IMG/VR virus record: IMGVR_UViG_3300010970_000163
Source: an uncultured virus (IMG/VR IMGVR_UViG_3300010970_000163)
Lineage: Duplodnaviria; Heunggongvirae; Uroviricota; Caudoviricetes
Length of the DNA stretch: 64,000 bases
Strand: one strand, 5' to 3'
The notes under the pieces: generated by a model
Told to the model about the DNA's origin: nothing
Databases searched by the model: none
Seen by the model: only the letters and a program-made list of their open reading frames with translations
Program-made: the position numbers and the translations under genes
In this document: positions 16,398 to 41,350 of the stretch, piece by piece
How positions within the stretch are numbered: the stretch's first letter is position 1
Layout of the letters: the number at the start of each line of letters is the position of its first letter

Positions 16398-16904
16398 GTG
16401 ACTATGAAAAAACCAGTAAAATTATCTTCAGAGATTGTAAACTTACTCCTCCCTCGTTTGAAGGATGAGTTTACAGCTGCTTACTTTTATCGTTCTGCAT
16501 CTAACTGGTGTAATAATGTAGGATTTTTCAAGGCAGGTACTTTCTTTGCCAAGGAATCTGAGGACGAGTTTGGTCACGCTAAGGAGATTGAAAACTTCTT
16601 AGTTAATTGGAATGTAACTCCAGAGTTGCCGACAATTGCAAAGCCTACTTTAACTTTCTCTAATCTATCTGATGTAATCTCTCAAGCCTATGAAATGGAG
16701 TATGCTCTATACGAAGCGTATGAAGAGACGAGTGTGAAGATTTTTAAGACAGAGGATCTCTGCGTGTTTGACTTCCTTCAAGGATACAGAACTAAACAGA
16801 CTAAAGCTGTTGCTGAATATAGCGATATGATTAATATCCTAGAAGGCATCAACTTGGGAAGCAAGTTTGAAATGTTAATGTTAGAAGAAAACTTATTTGG
16901 ATAA
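16398..16904 (+). CDS. Ferritin (FtnA-like)
   Basis: Four-helix ferritin pattern: DEFTAAYFY...W...G...FF.KES.DEFGHA, plus EMEYALYEAY. Probable start is the ATG at 16404, after a TAAATTTG box at 16391-16398. Confidence 0.8.
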   Translation: MTMKKPVKLSSEIVNLLLPRLKDEFTAAYFYRSASNWCNNVGFFKAGTFFAKESEDEFGHAKEIENFLVNWNVTPELPTIAKPTLTFSNLSDVISQAYEMEYALYEAYEETSVKIFKTEDLCVFDFLQGYRTKQTKAVAEYSDMINILEGINLGSKFEMLMLEENLFG

Positions 16905-23979: not shown

Positions 23980-24298
23980 ATTCCTTCATCTTAAATATAA
24001 TATCAATAACCCTCTGTCTATTCTCTTCATCATCTATAAAGTGTAGCATCTCATTGAGGGACTCTGAGACACTATCCGAGTATGTAAATTTAATAAAGGA
24101 TGGATCAACTAGGTGAAGATCACCATCCACAGATTCAACGATAGCGACAGACTCTCCACTTGAGAAGCCCCATGAGTGGAAGAAGCCTGTCCTTGCGCCA
24201 TCGAAATGAACCATATTGTTTTCGCCATCCCACTTAAAGCATAAGCCTTTCTCGATAGCGACACCGGTCCAATATTTAACCCTTCTGTACGTCTTCAT
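23978..24298 (-). CDS. Hypothetical protein
   Basis: 106-aa ORF with GFFHSWG...AIVE..DG motif. Confidence 0.6.
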   Translation of the reverse strand: MKTYRRVKYWTGVAIEKGLCFKWDGENNMVHFDGARTGFFHSWGFSSGESVAIVESVDGDLHLVDPSFIKFTYSDSVSESLNEMLHFIDDEENRQRVIDIIFKMKE

Positions 24299-24551
24299 CT
24301 TCTATTACAAGAAGTATATCTCCCTGAGCGATTAAACCGTACTTAACATCATTCTCCATTATCCACGTCACCTTTTTATCGGCAAACTTAATACGGTCAT
24401 TCATCTTAACCTCTGTTACTTCCTCTCCCATAGAGATTACAATGCCCTCATCAGGCACGTTGCGAGATACAAAGTCAGTGTGTAATACATCAGACTGAAT
24501 GTTTTTCTTCGTTACAAGTTTAAACTTAACTCGATCAAATAGTGGTTGCAT
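24276..24551 (-). CDS. groES: GroES-like co-chaperonin
   Basis: MQPLFDRV...EGIVISMGEEVTEVKMNDRIKF...YGLIAQGDILLVI. Confidence 0.85.
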   Translation of the reverse strand: MQPLFDRVKFKLVTKKNIQSDVLHTDFVSRNVPDEGIVISMGEEVTEVKMNDRIKFADKKVTWIMENDVKYGLIAQGDILLVIEDEDVQKG

Positions 24552-32145: not shown

Positions 32146-33002
32146 CTACTGAACTCTTACCTCCCATCCATAGCCTCGGTACTTAGCCGCCCATATATGT
32201 AGCTCCTCGGCAGGAATGTACTCCGCTGTTGGTGAAGCGTCGCCAATAGCTTTCTTCCAAAAGATATCCTGCCCGTTGCGTATATCGAAGGTGAATATCA
32301 TAACCTCTCTCGGTTCTTCGTACACCTCGTCCATGTAATCCTGTAGGACGTTGAACATCCTTTGTCTCTCCGCGTCATCCGAGTAAGCGTACTCGATAAA
32401 GTCTCTGATTTGGTCATCCGCATTTTGCTTGTTCATAGTTTCTAGTTGTTTATTGTTTATTGATTATTTGTTTGTTTGTTTTTAGTTAACTCTCTCCCAC
32501 TCACCAAGGCAGTGAAGGTAAAAATACTCCCGAAGATAACCCCGAACATTGCAAGGGGTGTAAGGGTAAGCACAAGAGATAAGGCAATAGCCACGAGGCT
32601 AAGTTCTAAGATAGTTTTCATGTGTTTTTATTTTTTTATAGTTAGTGTACGTTTAACGTGTGATAGCCCTTGAAACATTAAGAACCTCTTAGTTATTTGC
32701 AAGGCATCAGCTCGGTCTGTTGCATTAATAGTCGTGCTATCTATCTCCTCTCCCCCCTTAGTGAATAGGGTTAAAATCCATTGTTTTGTTTCCATGATTT
32801 TTGAATTATTTGGTTATACTTTTTTAGATTCGATTAGGTTGAAATAGTCCATGTATAGTATGTGAAATATCTCGTTAGCCTCTTCGGTGTAATATTTTCC
32901 GTCCTCCTCCCAAATTACTATTTTATCCGTATACACTCTCTCAAGGTGTAAGGAAGCTAATTCAGAGGCAAGGTCTTGTGCGTTGATTGTTCTAGTAAAC
33001 AT
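32146..33002 (-). other. First early genes (32146-32436, two short ORFs at about 32456-32620 and 32627-32795, and 32814-33002)
   Basis: Co-oriented small ORFs downstream of the promoter at 33398-33430. Confidence 0.65.
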
Positions 33003-33025
33003 AATTGTGTGTATTTATTGGTTAG

Positions 33026-33086
33026 CGAAACGTAGGGACTCGAACCCTACAACCTCTCTCACGAGCAGGTCTCTCCAAGCGTTTCA
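33026..33086 (-). ncRNA. tRNA-like element (acceptor plus T arm, no anticodon arm)
   Basis: UGAAAC/GUUUCG stem stacked on GUAGGG-UUCGAGU-CCCUAC (6+6 bp), a GG-containing D-like loop and a GNRA hairpin. Confidence 0.65.
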
Positions 33087-33098
33087 GTGTTTCCGATA

Positions 33099-33109
33099 TG
33101 TCAAAGAAC
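33099..33109 (-). promoter_or_regulatory. boxA-like antitermination site
   Basis: GTTCTTTGACA resembles rrn boxA (GCTCTTTAACA) and lies at the end of the early leader. Confidence 0.6.
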
Positions 33110-33110
33110 T

Positions 33111-33392
33111 ACAGGCTTTATACGCTTTCCTGTTATGCGTCTCAGTCTCTCTAAGATACCACCCTTGCTCAGTTAGGCTCTTAGCTATAGTGTAGGTGAC
33201 TGATAAACTCTACCTTGACGTGTTTTCTCGGATGCGTCTTTTCCCCGTGTCGTTAGGCATACTTGCTGTATTACTTACTAGCTTTTCTCTACACACTCAG
33301 TTCTGATATCGCATCAGTACATGTGGTGAATACTTCGTGTATGTGACTCCTAAACGTTATTTCAATTTGTCAGTATCAATTCCGTTGAATGA
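33111..33392 (-). ncRNA. Putative structured leader ncRNA
   Basis: About 280 nt with no ORF after a promoter. Helix CGUUUAGG..CAUAC/GUAUG-CCUAACG, hairpin CUGAU-gcgau-AUCAG, and motifs shared with 40583-40797. Confidence 0.45.
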
Positions 33393-33397
33393 TGGAG

Positions 33398-33430
33398 CAA
33401 ACCTACAACCGTTCTAAATGTTATTCCAAA
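33398..33430 (-). promoter_or_regulatory. Major early promoter (Bacteroidota -33/-7)
   Basis: TTTG-N21-TAGGTTTG on the minus strand. Confidence 0.8.
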
Positions 33431-34345
33431 TATATTTTAAACTATTTTCAAAATACGTTCTGAAACCCGCATTTTATGCACCCACTTTTTTCATTTTTGC
33501 TCTACAGCCCAATAGATTCAATACCTCATTTTGAAAAAACCAATGAATACAAGGCCTGCAGAAGCAGTAAAGAAACATATAAAATGGCAAAAAATACGCA
33601 TGAAAATAGAAACGTAGCAATAGCAAGGGTTTGAGGTGTAGTATGATTAAAAATGTGAGGATTGGCAGGACTTATAGAAGCTCACGAAATGCGTTGTGAA
33701 AAGGTTTTATTGTGCCTGATTTTAGAAAAAGCTTCAACTGGTGAGCGTGTTTTTTGATAGGTCGGAGTATTTCATGTGGTAATATGTGGTATTTATTATG
33801 CCGATAATGATACACGAAACGTATTAGGTTTTGAGGTTTAGTTCAGGGGTTATTTCATGGCAAAATATGTATTGAAATGTGCCGATAATTGAGAGTGAAA
33901 TGTGGGTGAATTTGCGGTGGTATTTCGCACCTGATTGGAGGGGTTATTTCGAGGGTTATTTTGTGCCGTGTTCGAATGTTAATTCATGGCATGAGTGAGA
34001 GGTTATGTTTTGGGGTTCATTGAGGTGCTATAGAGAGACGTTCACGGGCTGTATAATATCTAGGCATGAGAGAGAGTAATACACCACGTTTGCGGGCTTG
34101 TATCGAGGTCATGCTTTGCCGAGGTGAGAGGCTTGGGATCCCACTATTGACGCGGTGTGTAGCGATTTGTTATGCCGAGAGGTTGAGGCTTGGCTTGGGC
34201 TGTTTCTCAGTGTTGACGCGGTGTTCAGAGCTTTGGGGCTTGACTTTTGGGGTTGCTTTGGCCTAGGCCGGGGTGGGTTCGTAAACACGCATTTCCTGTG
34301 GCCGAGGGGGGTGGCCTAGCGTGGGGGAAACCCCCTTCCCTAAAC
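33431..34345. other. Long non-coding region, putative genome terminus/packaging site or origin
   Basis: About 900 nt without a credible ORF, G/T-skewed on the + strand, with short direct repeats and a GC-rich end. Confidence 0.45.
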
Positions 34346-34430
34346 AGCCTGCATATATCCCCTTTTCGCTTTATTTATCCCTTGATTCCCTTTTCGTGGT
34401 TATGTAAAGATACGAAATGTAATGTAAAGA

Positions 34431-34607
34431 TTATACTTCCGCTATGATAATAGTCTTTCCGTAGACCTTCATTAGCTTCTCCATATCGCTGAATGAGATA
34501 TCGATTGTATTGTTTTCTACTTTGTATAGCCAGGAGGCTGACTTATTTATAGATCCTGCCGCTAGTTCTAGTGACATCTTTTTCTCCTTTCTAATCTTTT
34601 TAAGCAT
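34431..34607 (-). CDS. XRE-family HTH regulator (58 aa, not in ORF track)
   Basis: MLKKIRKEKKMSLELAAGSINKSASWLYKVENNTIDISFSDMEKLMKVYG; own -7 box at 34627-34634. Confidence 0.8.
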   Translation of the reverse strand: MLKKIRKEKKMSLELAAGSINKSASWLYKVENNTIDISFSDMEKLMKVYGKTIIIAEV

Positions 34608-34687
34608 AATATATTTCCTTTGAGTACAAATATACTCGCATTTTGTTTACCTAGAGTAAAAATATGCTTATATTTGCTTAAAACTAC

Positions 34688-35215
34688 ATGGTTATGGATA
34701 AGATTTCTGTAAAAGACTTGGCTTTATTTTTTGATATTGACGCTCGTGAGTGTGTAAATTACCTTCAGATGTTTGAGAGGGATAATGGTTTGCGTTTAGT
34801 TGAGCCTGCTATACTTGATGCTTTTATACCCCAGGTTCTTCATGACAAGATAATGCGGATGTATAACAAGTTCAATAAAAACTTACTTGATGAGTCTTAT
34901 GTTATATCAGAGGCTTGTGGTCATATACCTATTGTTCCTACTGGCCCTAACATTTACTTCTTGCTTTTAGACAATGTAGTAATCTATATTGGCCAGAGTG
35001 TTAATGCCGTTACTAGGATAGGTAATCATATTGAGAATGGGCGTGTTTTTAATAGGACTTATGTCCTGCCTACTGTTAGTGGTCAATTAGATGTAATGGA
35101 GCTGTTATACATAAATACCTTTCAACCTAAGGAGAATGTTGTTGGGTTGTCCAATAAGACTATCTTCAAGCATATTTTAGGGAGAGTCACTATTAGTGAG
35201 AACGATTTAGTGTAG
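34688..35215 (+). CDS. GIY-YIG domain protein
   Basis: IYFLLLDNVVIYIGQS...RIGNH...E.LYI..FQPKEN; -7 box at 34669-34676. Confidence 0.7.
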   Translation: MVMDKISVKDLALFFDIDARECVNYLQMFERDNGLRLVEPAILDAFIPQVLHDKIMRMYNKFNKNLLDESYVISEACGHIPIVPTGPNIYFLLLDNVVIYIGQSVNAVTRIGNHIENGRVFNRTYVLPTVSGQLDVMELLYINTFQPKENVVGLSNKTIFKHILGRVTISENDLV

Positions 35216-37357: not shown

Positions 37358-40300
37358 TCACTTATCTCCCAAAATTTCTTTGAGTTGAGAGAGAATATCT
37401 GTCTGAGCCTGTCCCCAGAACATATCGCAGCTTCCGTCTGCCTTGATTGGAGGCTCTGTAAAGTAGGCCTGGTAGTATTCATCAGCCGGTGCTGTAAATC
37501 TATGGCACTTCTCTCTGTGTGGACAATCTGTCCCCCTGCACTTACTTATGTCGCTCATAGTCACCTCCAAATGTTTCGTTGTAGTATTCTTCAAATCCAC
37601 CATTATACTTGTTTTTACAAGCATCGAATTTAGAACATTCCTCCCAAGATATTTCCCAAGTTTGTTCCTGCTCCTCCTTGTGCATTGCTTTATGTTCTTC
37701 AAGCAAATCGTTAATGTCATCACCATTACCTTTTAGGAATCCTTTTTCATATAAAGCAATAGCAAATAGGTCTATGGAACTTTGTTTCTTCTTACTCATT
37801 TTTGTTAGTTCTATTGGAGGTTGAGGAATAGTGCTTCCCATAAAATCCCATACAATTTCTGATGCGTGTAAAAATTTTGCTCTGCCACAATGCTTACAAA
37901 TTGTAGGGGGAGATACATCAGTTCTTGATTCAAATATGCAATCACTCATTGTTACCTCCAAATGTTTCGTTGTACACTTCATTAAAAGTTCCCTCTCCCG
38001 TTAGTTGGAAGTTTCTACCACACTCAAACATTACTTCTTGCTCTGCTTTATGTAGTTCTTTGATTTGCTCAAATTCACCACTTTCTTGCATAGAGATGTA
38101 TAACTCTACATCTGATTCAAGTATTGCTTTCATTAAAATATCAATACTGCTTTGTTTCTTTTCCATAATTTTTATTCTTTAAAGTTATCAGTGATTATTG
38201 CTGCAAAGGAAACAAAACCTCCAGCAAATAAAATAAAACAAAATACAATTGGAAATGTGCCTGTTTGCTCTTGATACCATTGAGCAAATATTGGAGTTAA
38301 TAGTGAGCTAATTAATGTTAGTGCAAACATTATGTAGAGTTTTGTTGCTTTACTCATTGTTGTTTATTTTTTAGTTATATCAATCCATTGCCATCCTAAG
38401 CATACCTTCATCATTGTGCGATGCTGTAATTTCTTTTCCATAATTTTTAGTTTAAATTTTTTCAATTTCTTGTTCAATTTCTTGTTTAACTTCTTTCCAA
38501 TAATCTTTAGTGTTCATAGGCCAAAAAGAATCATAAACAGGACTTGCTGTATTAATAATTTCATCTACTGCTATCAAGGCACACGGTATCGCTAAATCTG
38601 TATCATAGCCTACTTCTTTAAGCATTTTGGTTACTAACGCATCTGCTTTTTCTTTTGGTGTCATAATTTTTAGTTTTTAGTTAAATAAACATAAGTAACA
38701 ATTACAAGTGCAATAAGTAATATTACGGTTGAAAGTTGAGGGTAAACAGTCATCAATGATGATAAGAATAGTATTGCAATTGCAAATGCTACTGATAATA
38801 AAAATGCTTTGATTTTGTTCATAAATTATTTATTTTAGTTTTTATTTTTTTTAATACCACTCTAAAATGTTAATCATGTGTGCGTAAGGGAAGTGCAAGA
38901 TAAAAAACTCGCCTGATGCAAGGTATACAGCACACATCTCAGGATCAATTTCATCATTTTCATCACCAGCATATTCTCTCACACCAACGATACTTGAGGT
39001 GAGTATCCTTACCTCTGCTTTAACAGTGCAGTTGTTATTACCAGTAAGGTCCGACAGTTTGCTGTTAATCAGTTCAATTTTGGCAGCTATAAATTTGTGC
39101 TTCATAGATTATTTATTTGATTTAGTTATTGTGTGTTTTGCAAATATATTAACATTTTTGTAATTATTGCAATACGTATTTCTACGTATTAATCTGCCCA
39201 TACCCAGTACCCGATCATTCTATTGTCAAGTTACTTTCCTGTAGCTCCTGGCGTATGTACTCTCTTATCCTGTAGCACACGTCCATTTCAGCTTCTGTTG
39301 CTTCTCCTGATCCTTGTATGGCGGCTCCGTATTTATGCACGCTACGGAGTTTTTGGTCGAGTTCCCAGAGGAACATCTTGTACTTAGATCCATCGAGAGC
39401 TGTACGCAGTTCTTCTGCCTCTTCTACCCGGTCAAATTCTATTGTTACTTTGCTCATAGCTTTTCTATTTCTTTGATTACCTTAAACCAGTATATGATTC
39501 TGATGGCGGAGCTGTCGTCGTACTTATGCTCCTTGACCTCCTCTAGCATTTCTTTCACAGCTATTATTGCGCAGTGCTTCGCATCCTCTTTAGCCTCCTC
39601 ATCGTAAAGCAGGCCTGCTCGGAGGTATATCCAATATTTGTCGACTAGCTCCTTTGCCTTTAATTTTGCTGTCATAACTATTCAAATGTATTCGTGTAGT
39701 ATTCCTCAAATTGCTTCTCGAAGATCTTTTTCAAGCGAGGGACTTTAGTCACATGAGCGAGATACAGGTCCTTCATCTCCTGCTTATGCATCTCCTTCAC
39801 CTTCTTGAGTGCGGCATTCCACTCCCACTTATCTCTTGGGGTTTCCCATAGAATTTCGAAGAGGACATCTACCGAGGTTTGCTTCTTGTTACTCATTGTT
39901 CTTTTTTAAGTATCTCCACAATGTCTTTAATTGCTTTTACAGCACAAAACAATGTAGATTCATTATCGTCATACCTTACTGCATCTCGTTGAGAAAGTGG
40001 ATAAGACACTTCACATTCGTTGTTATCAATAACAACTCTGATTCTTAATTCGTTAGTGTCACTCATAGCTTCTCAATCTTAATTGTTCCCATAGTACCAC
40101 TCGGTAATGCTGGAGAGGAATAGACATTGTTCCAGTCGTTGTCTATTGCTAGTCGGTGCATTATAGTCCTAGAAATTTGATAGCAGTTTCCAATAAACTC
40201 GGTGCTGTTGTAGCCATAACTTTGATTATCTGCAAAGTCGGGGAGAAGAACTCTTTTAGCCTGTCTTAGCAATTCCTCGGCTTTATTACGTCTTTCTAAA

Positions 40301-40449
40301 AACTCTTCAAACGGAAGACCTTCTAACATCTCCTCAAGAGTATTTCTTAACTGCCATTGTCCAGAGGCAAATCGAGATAAATCATCCATGCAATCTGCAA
40401 TCAATCCCATTTGCTCCTCCGATAATTCAATCGTGTACTTTTTGCTCAT
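37358..40449 (-). other. Second cluster of small hypothetical genes, including paralogous families
   Basis: Co-oriented ORFs, including 37942-38166, 38172-38357, 38452-38664, 38851-39105, 39215-39457, 39454-39675, 39678-39896 and 40063-40449. Confidence 0.7.
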
Positions 40450-40464
40450 ACCTTTTATTTTAGC

Positions 40465-40579
40465 AAAGGAGAAGGGATTCGAACCCTTATGTAGCTGCCA
40501 TTATAGTGACCACACCTTGTTCAGATGCTTTTTGCTATCGGTGCTATAACCATCCGATGTACCAATACGCTACTCCTTT
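40465..40579 (-). ncRNA. tRNA-like RNA with expanded central region
   Basis: 7-bp acceptor AAAGGAG/CUCCUUU, canonical T arm AAGGG-UUCGAAU-CCCUU, U8A9 and D-like UUGG. About 115 nt with no standard anticodon arm. Confidence 0.65.
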
Positions 40580-40582
40580 ATG

Positions 40583-40797
40583 TGCCTTTTTAAACGACGT
40601 CGAGAAGGCTAACTCTATCTCCTATACGATGAGAACAGTTACTTGAGCTTGTGTCAGAGGCTTACTGTGTTTTACGATCCACCGGCCTTGTGGCTATTAG
40701 TTTCTCTTTCTTATTCATTTGAGAGAGTACCCAAGTCAAAACCTCTAACTTAATCTCATCGGAGAGATCCTCGCTAAAGGTCTTGCGGAGCATTTTC
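40583..40797 (-). ncRNA. Putative pseudoknotted structured ncRNA
   Basis: 10-bp UUAGAGGUUU/AAGCCUCUGA and 8-bp ACUUGGGU/GCUCAAGU helices in crossed order, plus several hairpins; no ORF. Confidence 0.55.
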
Positions 40798-41073
40798 TCA
40801 TACACTAGCTGCTTCACTATCTTCATCTGTATCTTTTTCTTCTAGTGAGGCGCGAAATAATCTTGCGTAGTTTTGAAATTCAGGATTGTTTCTCAGTTCT
40901 GTTAAATGAGGATAAATTGAAGAGTCCAATAATTGGTCTATTAGATTTTTTACAGACTCAATAATTTCTTCATTGCTTGATTCTATATTGAGAGCTAATA
41001 GTTCAACTATTAATTTTTCAAATGAGTCAGCAAAGGCTTCTACACCACCGCTTGTTAAATTTAATTGTTTCAT
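40798..41073 (-). CDS. Hypothetical protein
   Basis: 91-aa ORF after a -7 box at 41089-41096. Confidence 0.6.
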   Translation of the reverse strand: MKQLNLTSGGVEAFADSFEKLIVELLALNIESSNEEIIESVKNLIDQLLDSSIYPHLTELRNNPEFQNYARLFRASLEEKDTDEDSEAASV

Positions 41074-41350
41074 TTTGTATTATTTTCACAAATATACGAA
41101 TAACAGAAAACAATATGCAAATTAAGTTATTAACAATTTTAAATATTATTGGGAAGTTTGTATTCCTCTCCTGAGTCGAGGCTAGACTTATAATCTTTGA
41201 TTATGTCGCATAGGAGTGGCTTCTTGCCGATCTGAGAGCAGCCTAATTGATGAGCGTTATAGTACCCACATTCAGGGCATTTACTTTTTTGCTTTTTCAT
41301 GAGTGCAAGGTAATATTTTTTTTAATACCTTTGTTTGTATAAATAAAAAA

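What the first reader, a model, noticed from the sequence alone, without database searches (positions are those of the whole stretch)
40583..40797. About 215-nt pseudoknotted ncRNA with a probable paralogue in the early leader
Seen: crossed helices 40739-40748/40654-40663 (10 bp) and 40729-40736/40641-40648 (8 bp). It shares with 33111-33392 the pattern GCCU..GACAC-N32/33-RUAGAGUU (40655-40611 and 33251-33206). In both, the GCCU segment pairs with an upstream strand. From memory the UGACAC...UAGAGUU pattern resembles the manA RNA motif of aquatic phages, but this is unverified and it could be a new class.
Basis: partly seen in the sequence, partly recalled or inferred. Interest (0 to 1): 0.7.

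Follow-up and report, generated by a model that had tools for sequence, protein, structure and literature searches.

The report
Phage RNA mimicking host AbiF antitoxin
A freshwater phage carries a small folded RNA, shared by very different phages, that displays a look-alike of the RNA its host bacteria use to keep the suicide enzyme AbiF switched off, so it is probably a decoy that disarms this anti-phage defence, though that is untested.

Summary
The real element is a 113-nt ncRNA (40583-40695, minus), in 72 distinct sequences from uncultured phages, podoviral to T4-like, often abutting tRNA genes. It has five helices, including a 3' H-type pseudoknot (12 of 20 pairs change on both sides), and a hairpin loop that is palindromic in 72 of 72, the signature of a self-kissing dimer. 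P2 variants match three loop classes found upstream of Abi_2 genes in Bacteroidia genomes (up to 16 nt exact); 0 of 50 carrier records encode Abi_2; bare copies of the hairpin are common in phages. Best reading: an orphan antitoxin mimic on a dimerising scaffold that blocks AbiF in trans (0.58). Against: the window's own P2 scores below Rfam detection, and 3 of 72 members lack P2 but keep the scaffold. The scan probably met this family before on other DNA, without the abiF link.

The parts
40583..40695 (-). The ncRNA (113 nt): P1 - J1/2 - P2 (abiF-type hairpin) - P3 - H-type pseudoknot P4/P5
   Evidence: 72 distinct sequences; 99.3% of cells paired, 12 of 20 pairs with two-sided change, 0 of 500 shuffles as high; ends set by changing flanks and by tRNA genes 4 nt away on both sides in L206
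40679..40693 (-). P1 hairpin, 4 bp, loop AAGGCCG with palindrome GGCC (predicted self-kissing loop)
   Evidence: 3 of 4 pairs change on both sides; loop palindromic in 72 of 72, core CGCG 35, GGCC 27, GCGC 5, GAUC 5
40669..40678 (-). J1/2, near-invariant single strand AUCGUAAAAC; role unknown
   Evidence: alignment A1; partly forced by my search patterns
40635..40668 (-). P2, abiF-type antitoxin hairpin: 5-bp outer stem, bulged A (40663), AGC/GCU inner stem, 11-nt loop CUCUGACACAA (40649-40659), 6-nt 3' bulge (40640-40645)
   Evidence: same geometry as the RF03085 consensus; only site of that strict geometry in the window, 0 in 100 random sequences; rank 2 of 127,958 sites with a host-only profile; 4 of 4 outer pairs covary; not detected by Rfam or by my host-only model on its own
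40618..40634 (-). P3 hairpin UCUC/GAGA with near-invariant loop AUCGUAUAG; role unknown
   Evidence: 1 of 4 pairs covaries, 3 never vary
40584..40615 (-). H-type pseudoknot: P4 GAG (40613-40615)/CUC (40602-40604), P5 GCCUU (40605-40609)/AAGGC (40584-40588); L3 holds GAC-GUC-GUU (40593-40601)
   Evidence: P4 1 of 3, P5 3 of 5 pairs change on both sides; P4 is extended to 6-7 bp in six insertion variants
40464..40579 (-). tRNA-like gene with an expanded anticodon/variable region, 3 nt downstream; its 5' processing would free the RNA's 3' end (inferred)
   Evidence: Rfam tRNA 29.3 bits, gathering 29; not called by ARAGORN
40662..40826 (-).
   Evidence: no Pfam match
40798..41073 (-). 91-codon ORF of unknown function, upstream in the same direction
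41089..41096 (-). TATATTTG, candidate Bacteroidota -7 promoter element for the unit (motif recalled, not from a call)
   Evidence: the pattern occurs 81 times against 69 expected, so weak on its own

Best explanation
A phage small RNA that acts as an orphan antitoxin mimic against the host's AbiF (Abi_2/AbiD-F HEPN RNase) abortive-infection toxin. It is co-transcribed with small early genes and tRNA-like genes and cut out by tRNA processing (inferred). P2 copies the abiF antitoxin hairpin and binds the AbiF active site in trans, so the toxin stays blocked when host antitoxin runs down during infection (inferred). The palindromic P1 loop lets two molecules kiss, offering two P2 hairpins to the AbiF homodimer, which binds two RNAs (inferred). 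P3 and the 3' pseudoknot give a compact, stable scaffold and may have a job of their own. P2 is a swappable cassette that tracks the antitoxin classes of the hosts. Shown: family, fold by covariation, P2 likeness to host antitoxins, absence of the toxin gene. Not shown: expression as a discrete RNA, binding, dimer, protection.
For: Rfam abiF matches in 18 of 40 carrier records at E<=1 per record, and by their coordinates all 18 fall in P2 (alignment). 23 of 301 Bacteroidia genomes have Abi_2; 18 of 25 such loci have the hairpin upstream by script, 24 by eye; two of these proteins match PDB 8VZ6 at E 2e-55 and 2e-62. Three P2 classes share 15, 16 and 16 nt exactly with host hairpins L514, L515, L516, against a control mean near 6.7 (the one control in 100 that reached this was drawn from the same host loci). 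49 of 72 members have the 11-nt-loop class. 0 of 50 carrier records encode Abi_2 (0 of 14 near-complete; control rings in 2 genomes), nor do 55 window ORFs scanned. Bare hairpins without toxin are common in viral contigs: 2 of 70 have Abi_2 downstream and 28 of 70 a tRNA T-arm within 200 nt (background 0 of 64); 7 of 27 of a second class carry the window's exact loop inside a host-type stem, 0 of 27 with Abi_2 downstream. L194 and L206 carry a second, nearly verbatim host hairpin right after a tRNA. abiF RNA neutralises AbiF in trans, stem sequence is free while stem pairing is needed, and AbiF is a dimer with two RNAs (10.1101/2025.04.15.648962; PMC12737573). Palindrome switching is the criterion used for the symmetric kissing loops of OLE and GOLLD (PMC12286853). 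94 of 97 nt identical between the window and a T4-like gp23 phage lacking any match to the window's terminase.
Against: No P2 reaches the Rfam gathering score (best 28 of 37 bits). The window's own P2 gives no Rfam match at E<=10 on 56 nt and no match to my host-only model at E<=10; its longest exact match to a host hairpin is 8 nt, reached by 11 of 100 controls, and one coding site outscores it in the profile scan. 3 of 72 members have P2 cut short yet keep P1, J1/2, P3 and the pseudoknot, and these parts are more conserved than P2, so anti-AbiF cannot be the whole job. Only 8% of sampled Bacteroidia carry Abi_2. Sequences are closely related, so cell counts overstate independent changes; 6 of 20 pairs never vary. 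RNAcofold's dimer pairs the 3' end, not the P1 loop (it cannot model kissing loops). RNA-library contigs show presence only.
Confidence: 0.58

Rival explanations
1. The scaffold (P1, J1/2, P3, pseudoknot) does the main job, for example as a self-assembling stable RNA or as a decoy for another RNA-binding defence protein; the abiF hairpin is a captured passenger, partly decayed in the window's variant.
For: Scaffold near-invariant while P2 is exchanged or cut short in 3 of 72; the pseudoknot also occurs alone after tRNAs (L480, L490) and in a second module (L049, L202, L247); window P2 below detection.
Against: P2 keeps its inner stem, loop start and 3' bulge across at least three classes that each mirror a host class, and the window's exact loop recurs in bare host-type hairpins; a passenger would not track host diversity. 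No host counterpart of the scaffold in 151 and 401 Bacteroidia genomes; ToxN not found in 251, with no positive control.
Confidence: 0.25
2. P2 is a cis-acting AbiF sensor or an AbiF cleavage site: bound or cut by host AbiF, it changes processing or expression of the downstream tRNA-like and small genes.
For: In hosts the hairpin is a cis attenuator and AbiF processes its own RNA; here it lies inside a transcription unit.
Against: P2 has no U-tract and is closed inside a scaffold; downstream neighbours differ widely between 75 contexts; in L206 it lies between two canonical tRNAs.
Confidence: 0.07
3. A self-cleaving ribozyme that processes the tRNA array, like theta ribozymes.
For: Starts 4-5 nt after a tRNA 3' end in 8 of 74 contexts; invariant single strands and a pseudoknot; theta ribozymes sit this way (PMC10879173 abstract).
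Against: No Rfam ribozyme match at E<=10; most contexts have no tRNA upstream; fold unlike HDV, twister, pistol, hatchet or hammerhead (comparison from memory).
Confidence: 0.07
4. One reading: a 215-nt manA-like RNA with crossed long-range helices and a paralogue at 33.2 kb.
For: The helices can form and the short pattern occurs twice.
Against: Chance level 30 of 300, arms in coding sequence, not compensated; no manA match; no model match at 33.2 kb.
Confidence: 0.01

Closest known systems
abiF RNA (Rfam RF03085) / AbiFr and RCd22, RNA antitoxins of AbiF (Abi_2, PF07751; PDB 8VZ6)
   Same: P2 has the same hairpin anatomy and loop words; variants match Bacteroidia host classes at 15-16 nt
   Different: No Abi_2 gene in the carrier, no terminator U-tract, A/U-rich outer stem, embedded in a 113-nt scaffold; below gathering score
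pseudo-ToxI of phage PhiTE (PMC3475682, abstract)
   Same: Phage non-coding RNA resembling a host type III antitoxin, without the toxin; near-verbatim capture also seen here (L194, L206)
   Different: Other toxin family (HEPN AbiF, not ToxN); single hairpin on a conserved scaffold among tRNA genes, not tandem repeats; many natural phages
Phage sk1 cos-site hairpin that inhibits lactococcal AbiF (as described in PMC13064643, passages)
   Same: Phage hairpin blocking AbiF
   Different: That hairpin is said not to resemble the AbiF ncRNA; P2 does
RNA anti-CRISPRs, e.g. rAcrVIA1 against Cas13 (PMC12948488, passages)
   Same: Phage RNA mimicry against a HEPN RNase system; AbiF is the proposed ancestor of Cas13
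   Different: Target is a toxin-antitoxin system, and mimicry here is by sequence as well as shape
GOLLD, ROOL, OLE (PMC12286853, passages) and manA (RF01745; bioRxiv 10.64898/2026.07.01.735769)
   Same: Phage-borne, near tRNAs; loop palindrome switching as in OLE L9.3 and GOLLD L21a
   Different: Far shorter, different fold, no Rfam match

Membership tests
manA (RF01745) | Match to the covariance model (gathering 55.2 bits) | tested here: not met
   none at E<=10 in 40300-41000 and 32500-34700; 1 weak match in 5 carrier records, elsewhere in the genome
manA (RF01745) | About 190-nt conserved RNA in 5' UTRs of metabolic genes of cyanophages and marine bacteria | tested here: not met
   113 nt, Bacteroidota-type phage, tRNA context
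abiF RNA (RF03085) | Score at or above gathering (37 bits) | tested here: not met
   best 28 bits in relatives; window none at E<=10
abiF RNA (RF03085) | Outer stem, bulged A, 3-bp inner stem, 11-nt loop starting CUCU, 6-nt 3' bulge starting CA | tested here: met
   49 of 72 members have this loop class
abiF RNA (RF03085) | Lies directly upstream of an Abi_2 gene as leader and attenuator | tested here: not met
   0 of 50 carrier records, 0 of 55 window ORFs scanned
abiF RNA (RF03085) | Binds AbiF and blocks its RNase | not testable with these tools
   needs binding and toxicity assays
Phage antitoxin mimics (pseudo-ToxI kind) | Antitoxin-like RNA in a phage without the cognate toxin | tested here: met
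Phage antitoxin mimics (pseudo-ToxI kind) | Expressed during infection | tested here: inconclusive
   close relatives occur in contigs of 4 of 4 RNA libraries laid, from 4 studies; contigs show no strand or ends
Phage antitoxin mimics (pseudo-ToxI kind) | Lets the phage escape abortive infection | not testable with these tools
   no cultured carrier among 50,697 phage records
Self-kissing RNA multimers (OLE/GOLLD type) | Loop switches between palindromes that cannot pair within one chain | tested here: met
   72 of 72; four core words; 21-25% of random 7-8-mers of the window hold a palindrome of 4 or more, 4-5% of 6
Self-kissing RNA multimers (OLE/GOLLD type) | Forms an oligomer in solution | not testable with these tools
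   needs SEC-MALS, native gel or cryo-EM
Self-cleaving ribozymes (theta/HDV, twister, others) | Match to a ribozyme model or catalytic core | tested here: not met
   no Rfam ribozyme at E<=10; core comparison from memory only

The most novel reading that the evidence does not exclude
Phage tRNA arrays serve as release platforms for a widespread arsenal of RNA antitoxin mimics against AbiF, the ancestor of Cas13. This 113-nt RNA is the elaborated form: a self-dimerising chassis with a swappable antitoxin cassette matched to the two RNA sites of the AbiF dimer, whose other conserved parts may be decoys for further RNA-controlled defences not yet described.
Probability: 0.4. Interest if true: 0.9.

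Novelty: new variant of a known kind. Interest (0 to 1): 0.8.

Why it matters
It gives a testable function to one of the many orphan RNAs in phage tRNA clusters, and points to a common RNA-based counter-defence against AbiF: one pattern alone found 78 distinct viral hairpins, nearly all without the toxin. It would also be indirect evidence that AbiF is an active anti-phage system in Bacteroidota, since unrelated phages keep copying its antitoxin and follow its sequence classes. Host toxin/antitoxin pairs matching each cassette are identified (L514, L515, L516), so the test is direct.

Tried and rejected
Rfam at gathering over the whole window: 0 matches. Cultured phages by blastn: only 2 chance 29-nt matches. 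The window's assembly is not held; nearest record G001 lacks the stretch. Folding the 215 nt and the 282 nt alone: z -1.57 and +0.83. RNAalifold on A1 recovers P1, P2 and P5 but puts an invariant alternative in place of P3/P4; I prefer P3/P4 because both have two-sided changes. A second self-kissing site at GACGUC: a GAC/GUU mini-hairpin fits 68 of 72, the palindrome 65 of 72, so left open. Host homologues of the scaffold: best other hits in 151 genomes lie in coding sequence (5 inspected); pseudoknot pattern 2 of 401 genomes, one the carrier contig, fewer than the reversed control. A strict host pattern for the window's loop class found 1 of 401 genomes. ToxN search uninformative. The 33.2-kb motif is not an abiF-type hairpin by descriptor. 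Alignment A1 used 61 of 72 sequences (11 long-insertion variants left out); model R2 used 18 of 19 host hairpins, and its alignment has several rows out of register. The Cell 2025 AbiF paper and the supplement of PMC5737381 could not be read; either could already mention phage abiF copies or this motif.

Full report
Setting. The window is a tailed phage genome: terminase, portal, RecT, primase-helicase and very large virion-type ORFs. Its terminase has distant relatives (25-28%) only in Flavobacterium, Cellulophaga, Tenacibaculum and Maribacter phages and one unnamed phage. The one genome contig carrying the RNA's core word is an 82-kb phage-like contig of a Bacteroidia MAG. The host is therefore most likely a member of the Bacteroidota (inference).

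The observation. Their 5' arms sit in a 54-codon ORF. Of 74 family contexts with enough upstream sequence, 11 have that ORF, and only the window and L031 keep all 18 pairs; the others change mostly silent positions without compensation. Rfam finds nothing at gathering in the window and no manA at E<=10 at either site. The family model finds nothing at 33111-33392, and the pattern is not kept there in three related phages. The 215-nt model and the paralogue fall.

The real element. Scans of viral and metagenome contigs and iterated nhmmer give 182 locus hits, redundant between scans, and 72 distinct sequences. The conserved part is 40583-40695. On 61 of the 72, five helices are 99.3% paired, 12 of 20 pairs change on both sides, no shuffle of 500 and no slid register comes near. 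Order: P1 hairpin, invariant AUCGUAAAAC, P2, P3 with invariant loop, then an H-type pseudoknot whose first stem is lengthened in six insertion variants. The sequences are closely related and some invariance is imposed by my patterns, so counts overstate independence. Carriers include complete 173- and 161-kb phages with T4-like gp23 and no match to the window's terminase, yet the window and one of them share 94 of 97 nt after P1: the RNA moves as a module. A tRNA T-arm lies within 260 nt downstream in 41 of 72 contexts and ends 4-5 nt upstream in 8 of 74; in L206 the RNA fills the gap between two canonical tRNAs. In the window a tRNA-like gene starts 3 nt downstream. Close relatives occur in contigs of four RNA libraries from four studies, which shows presence only.

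P1 loop. It holds a palindrome in 72 of 72 sequences, switching between UCGCGA, UGGCCA, UGAUCA, AGCGCU, GCGC, CGCG and GGCC. The inner pairs cannot form within one chain; the same argument was used for the symmetric kissing loops of OLE and GOLLD (PMC12286853, passages). A homodimer is likely (about 0.7, inference).

P2 is an abiF-type hairpin. A weak Rfam hit in one relative showed the RF03085 consensus, whose geometry the window's P2 follows exactly; it is the only such strict site in the window and none arose in 100 random sequences. The Rfam model hits 18 of 40 carrier records at E<=1, always in P2, never above gathering. In Bacteroidia, 23 of 301 genomes have Abi_2; their leaders carry such hairpins in several loop classes, and two of the proteins match the AbiF structure 8VZ6. 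Phage P2 variants mirror these classes: 15 nt exact with L514, 16 with L515, 16 with L516. A model built from host hairpins alone gave 21 matches at E<=10 in 60 phage loci: 13 in P2, 2 at extra bare hairpins, 6 elsewhere. The window's own variant is more diverged: no hit with Rfam or with that model, rank 2 of 127,958 with a host-only profile. But its exact loop recurs in 7 of 27 bare hairpins with host-type stems in other viral contigs (the loop was in the pattern, the stems were not). None of 50 carrier records and none of 55 window ORFs scanned encode Abi_2.

Mechanism. AbiF is a HEPN RNase toxin held off by this hairpin; it is a homodimer with two RNAs, the RNA works in trans, and stem pairing but not stem sequence is needed (10.1101/2025.04.15.648962, abstract and sections 10-12; PMC12737573 and PMC13064643, passages). 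A phage that makes the hairpin without the toxin is best read as supplying antitoxin, as PhiTE does with pseudo-ToxI (PMC3475682, abstract). The scaffold would free it from the transcript, stabilise it and, by P1 kissing, pair two copies. All functional steps are inferred. The main objection is that 3 of 72 members lack P2 and keep the rest, and that the pseudoknot also occurs alone or with another cassette, so the scaffold has a role I cannot name; I found no host counterpart.

Novelty. Searches found no paper on this RNA or on abiF-like phage decoys. Known nearby: one abiF RNA annotated in cyanophage S-CREM1 and three in phages in Rfam, with no decoy role in the passages seen (PMC9964418), and the sk1 cos hairpin, said not to resemble the antitoxin. 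The Cell 2025 AbiF paper and the supplement of PMC5737381 could not be read; PMC2864571 and PMC5737381 were seen as passages, the manA preprint as abstract and first half of Results, PMC12948488 as passages, PMC10879173 as abstract. Earlier scan notes seem to have met this family without the abiF link. Verdict: a real, uncatalogued phage ncRNA; not manA; works most likely like an antitoxin mimic; not a formal member of RF03085. New variant of a known kind, interest 0.8.

Noticed in passing
L537-L654 and L670-L699 (viral contigs); L194 337-375 minus, L206 688-726: Bare abiF-type hairpins without an Abi_2 gene are very common in phages, often starting right at a tRNA 3' end and keeping the host's 5' leader. 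A finding in its own right.
   Followed up: partly
window 40464-40579 minus: tRNA-like gene with acceptor, D-like loop and T-arm but an expanded middle; relatives carry other expansions in the same frame.
   Followed up: partly
window 33020-33109 minus: GTTCTTTGACATA (boxA-like antitermination word, recalled) followed by a small tRNA-like element with a T-arm; conserved in 3 related phages.
   Followed up: partly
   Followed up: partly
L049, L165, L202, L247, directly downstream of the RNA: A second ~80-nt module with the same pseudoknot, a short P3 and a hairpin holding ACCGUAAGAAC, close to the loop of host hairpin L523; probably a sister decoy.
   Followed up: partly
L480 about 298-330, L490 about 298-332: The pseudoknot alone, with a covarying first stem, just after tRNA genes.
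   Followed up: no
L028, L051, L062, L081, L107, L136, L187 downstream: A conserved ~100-nt module starting CUAUUAGUAAACUUUAG that looks twister-like by eye; no Rfam match.
   Followed up: no
L020, L029, L059, L212, L250, L369 and L037, L070, L146 downstream: Two more recurring small modules (UGUGUUGUUCCCUUGAGAAAGGAA..., GACAGC-GGAAAGAC...) in the same arrays.
   Followed up: no
L520 (host genome G165), upstream of Abi_2: Two abiF-type hairpins of different loop class in tandem before one Abi_2 gene.
   Followed up: no
window 16398-16904 and 24276-24551: Phage-encoded ferritin-like protein and Cpn10-like protein.
   Followed up: no
window 33900-34400: GC-rich, repetitive non-coding stretch at a change of gene direction; possible genome end or origin.
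   Followed up: no
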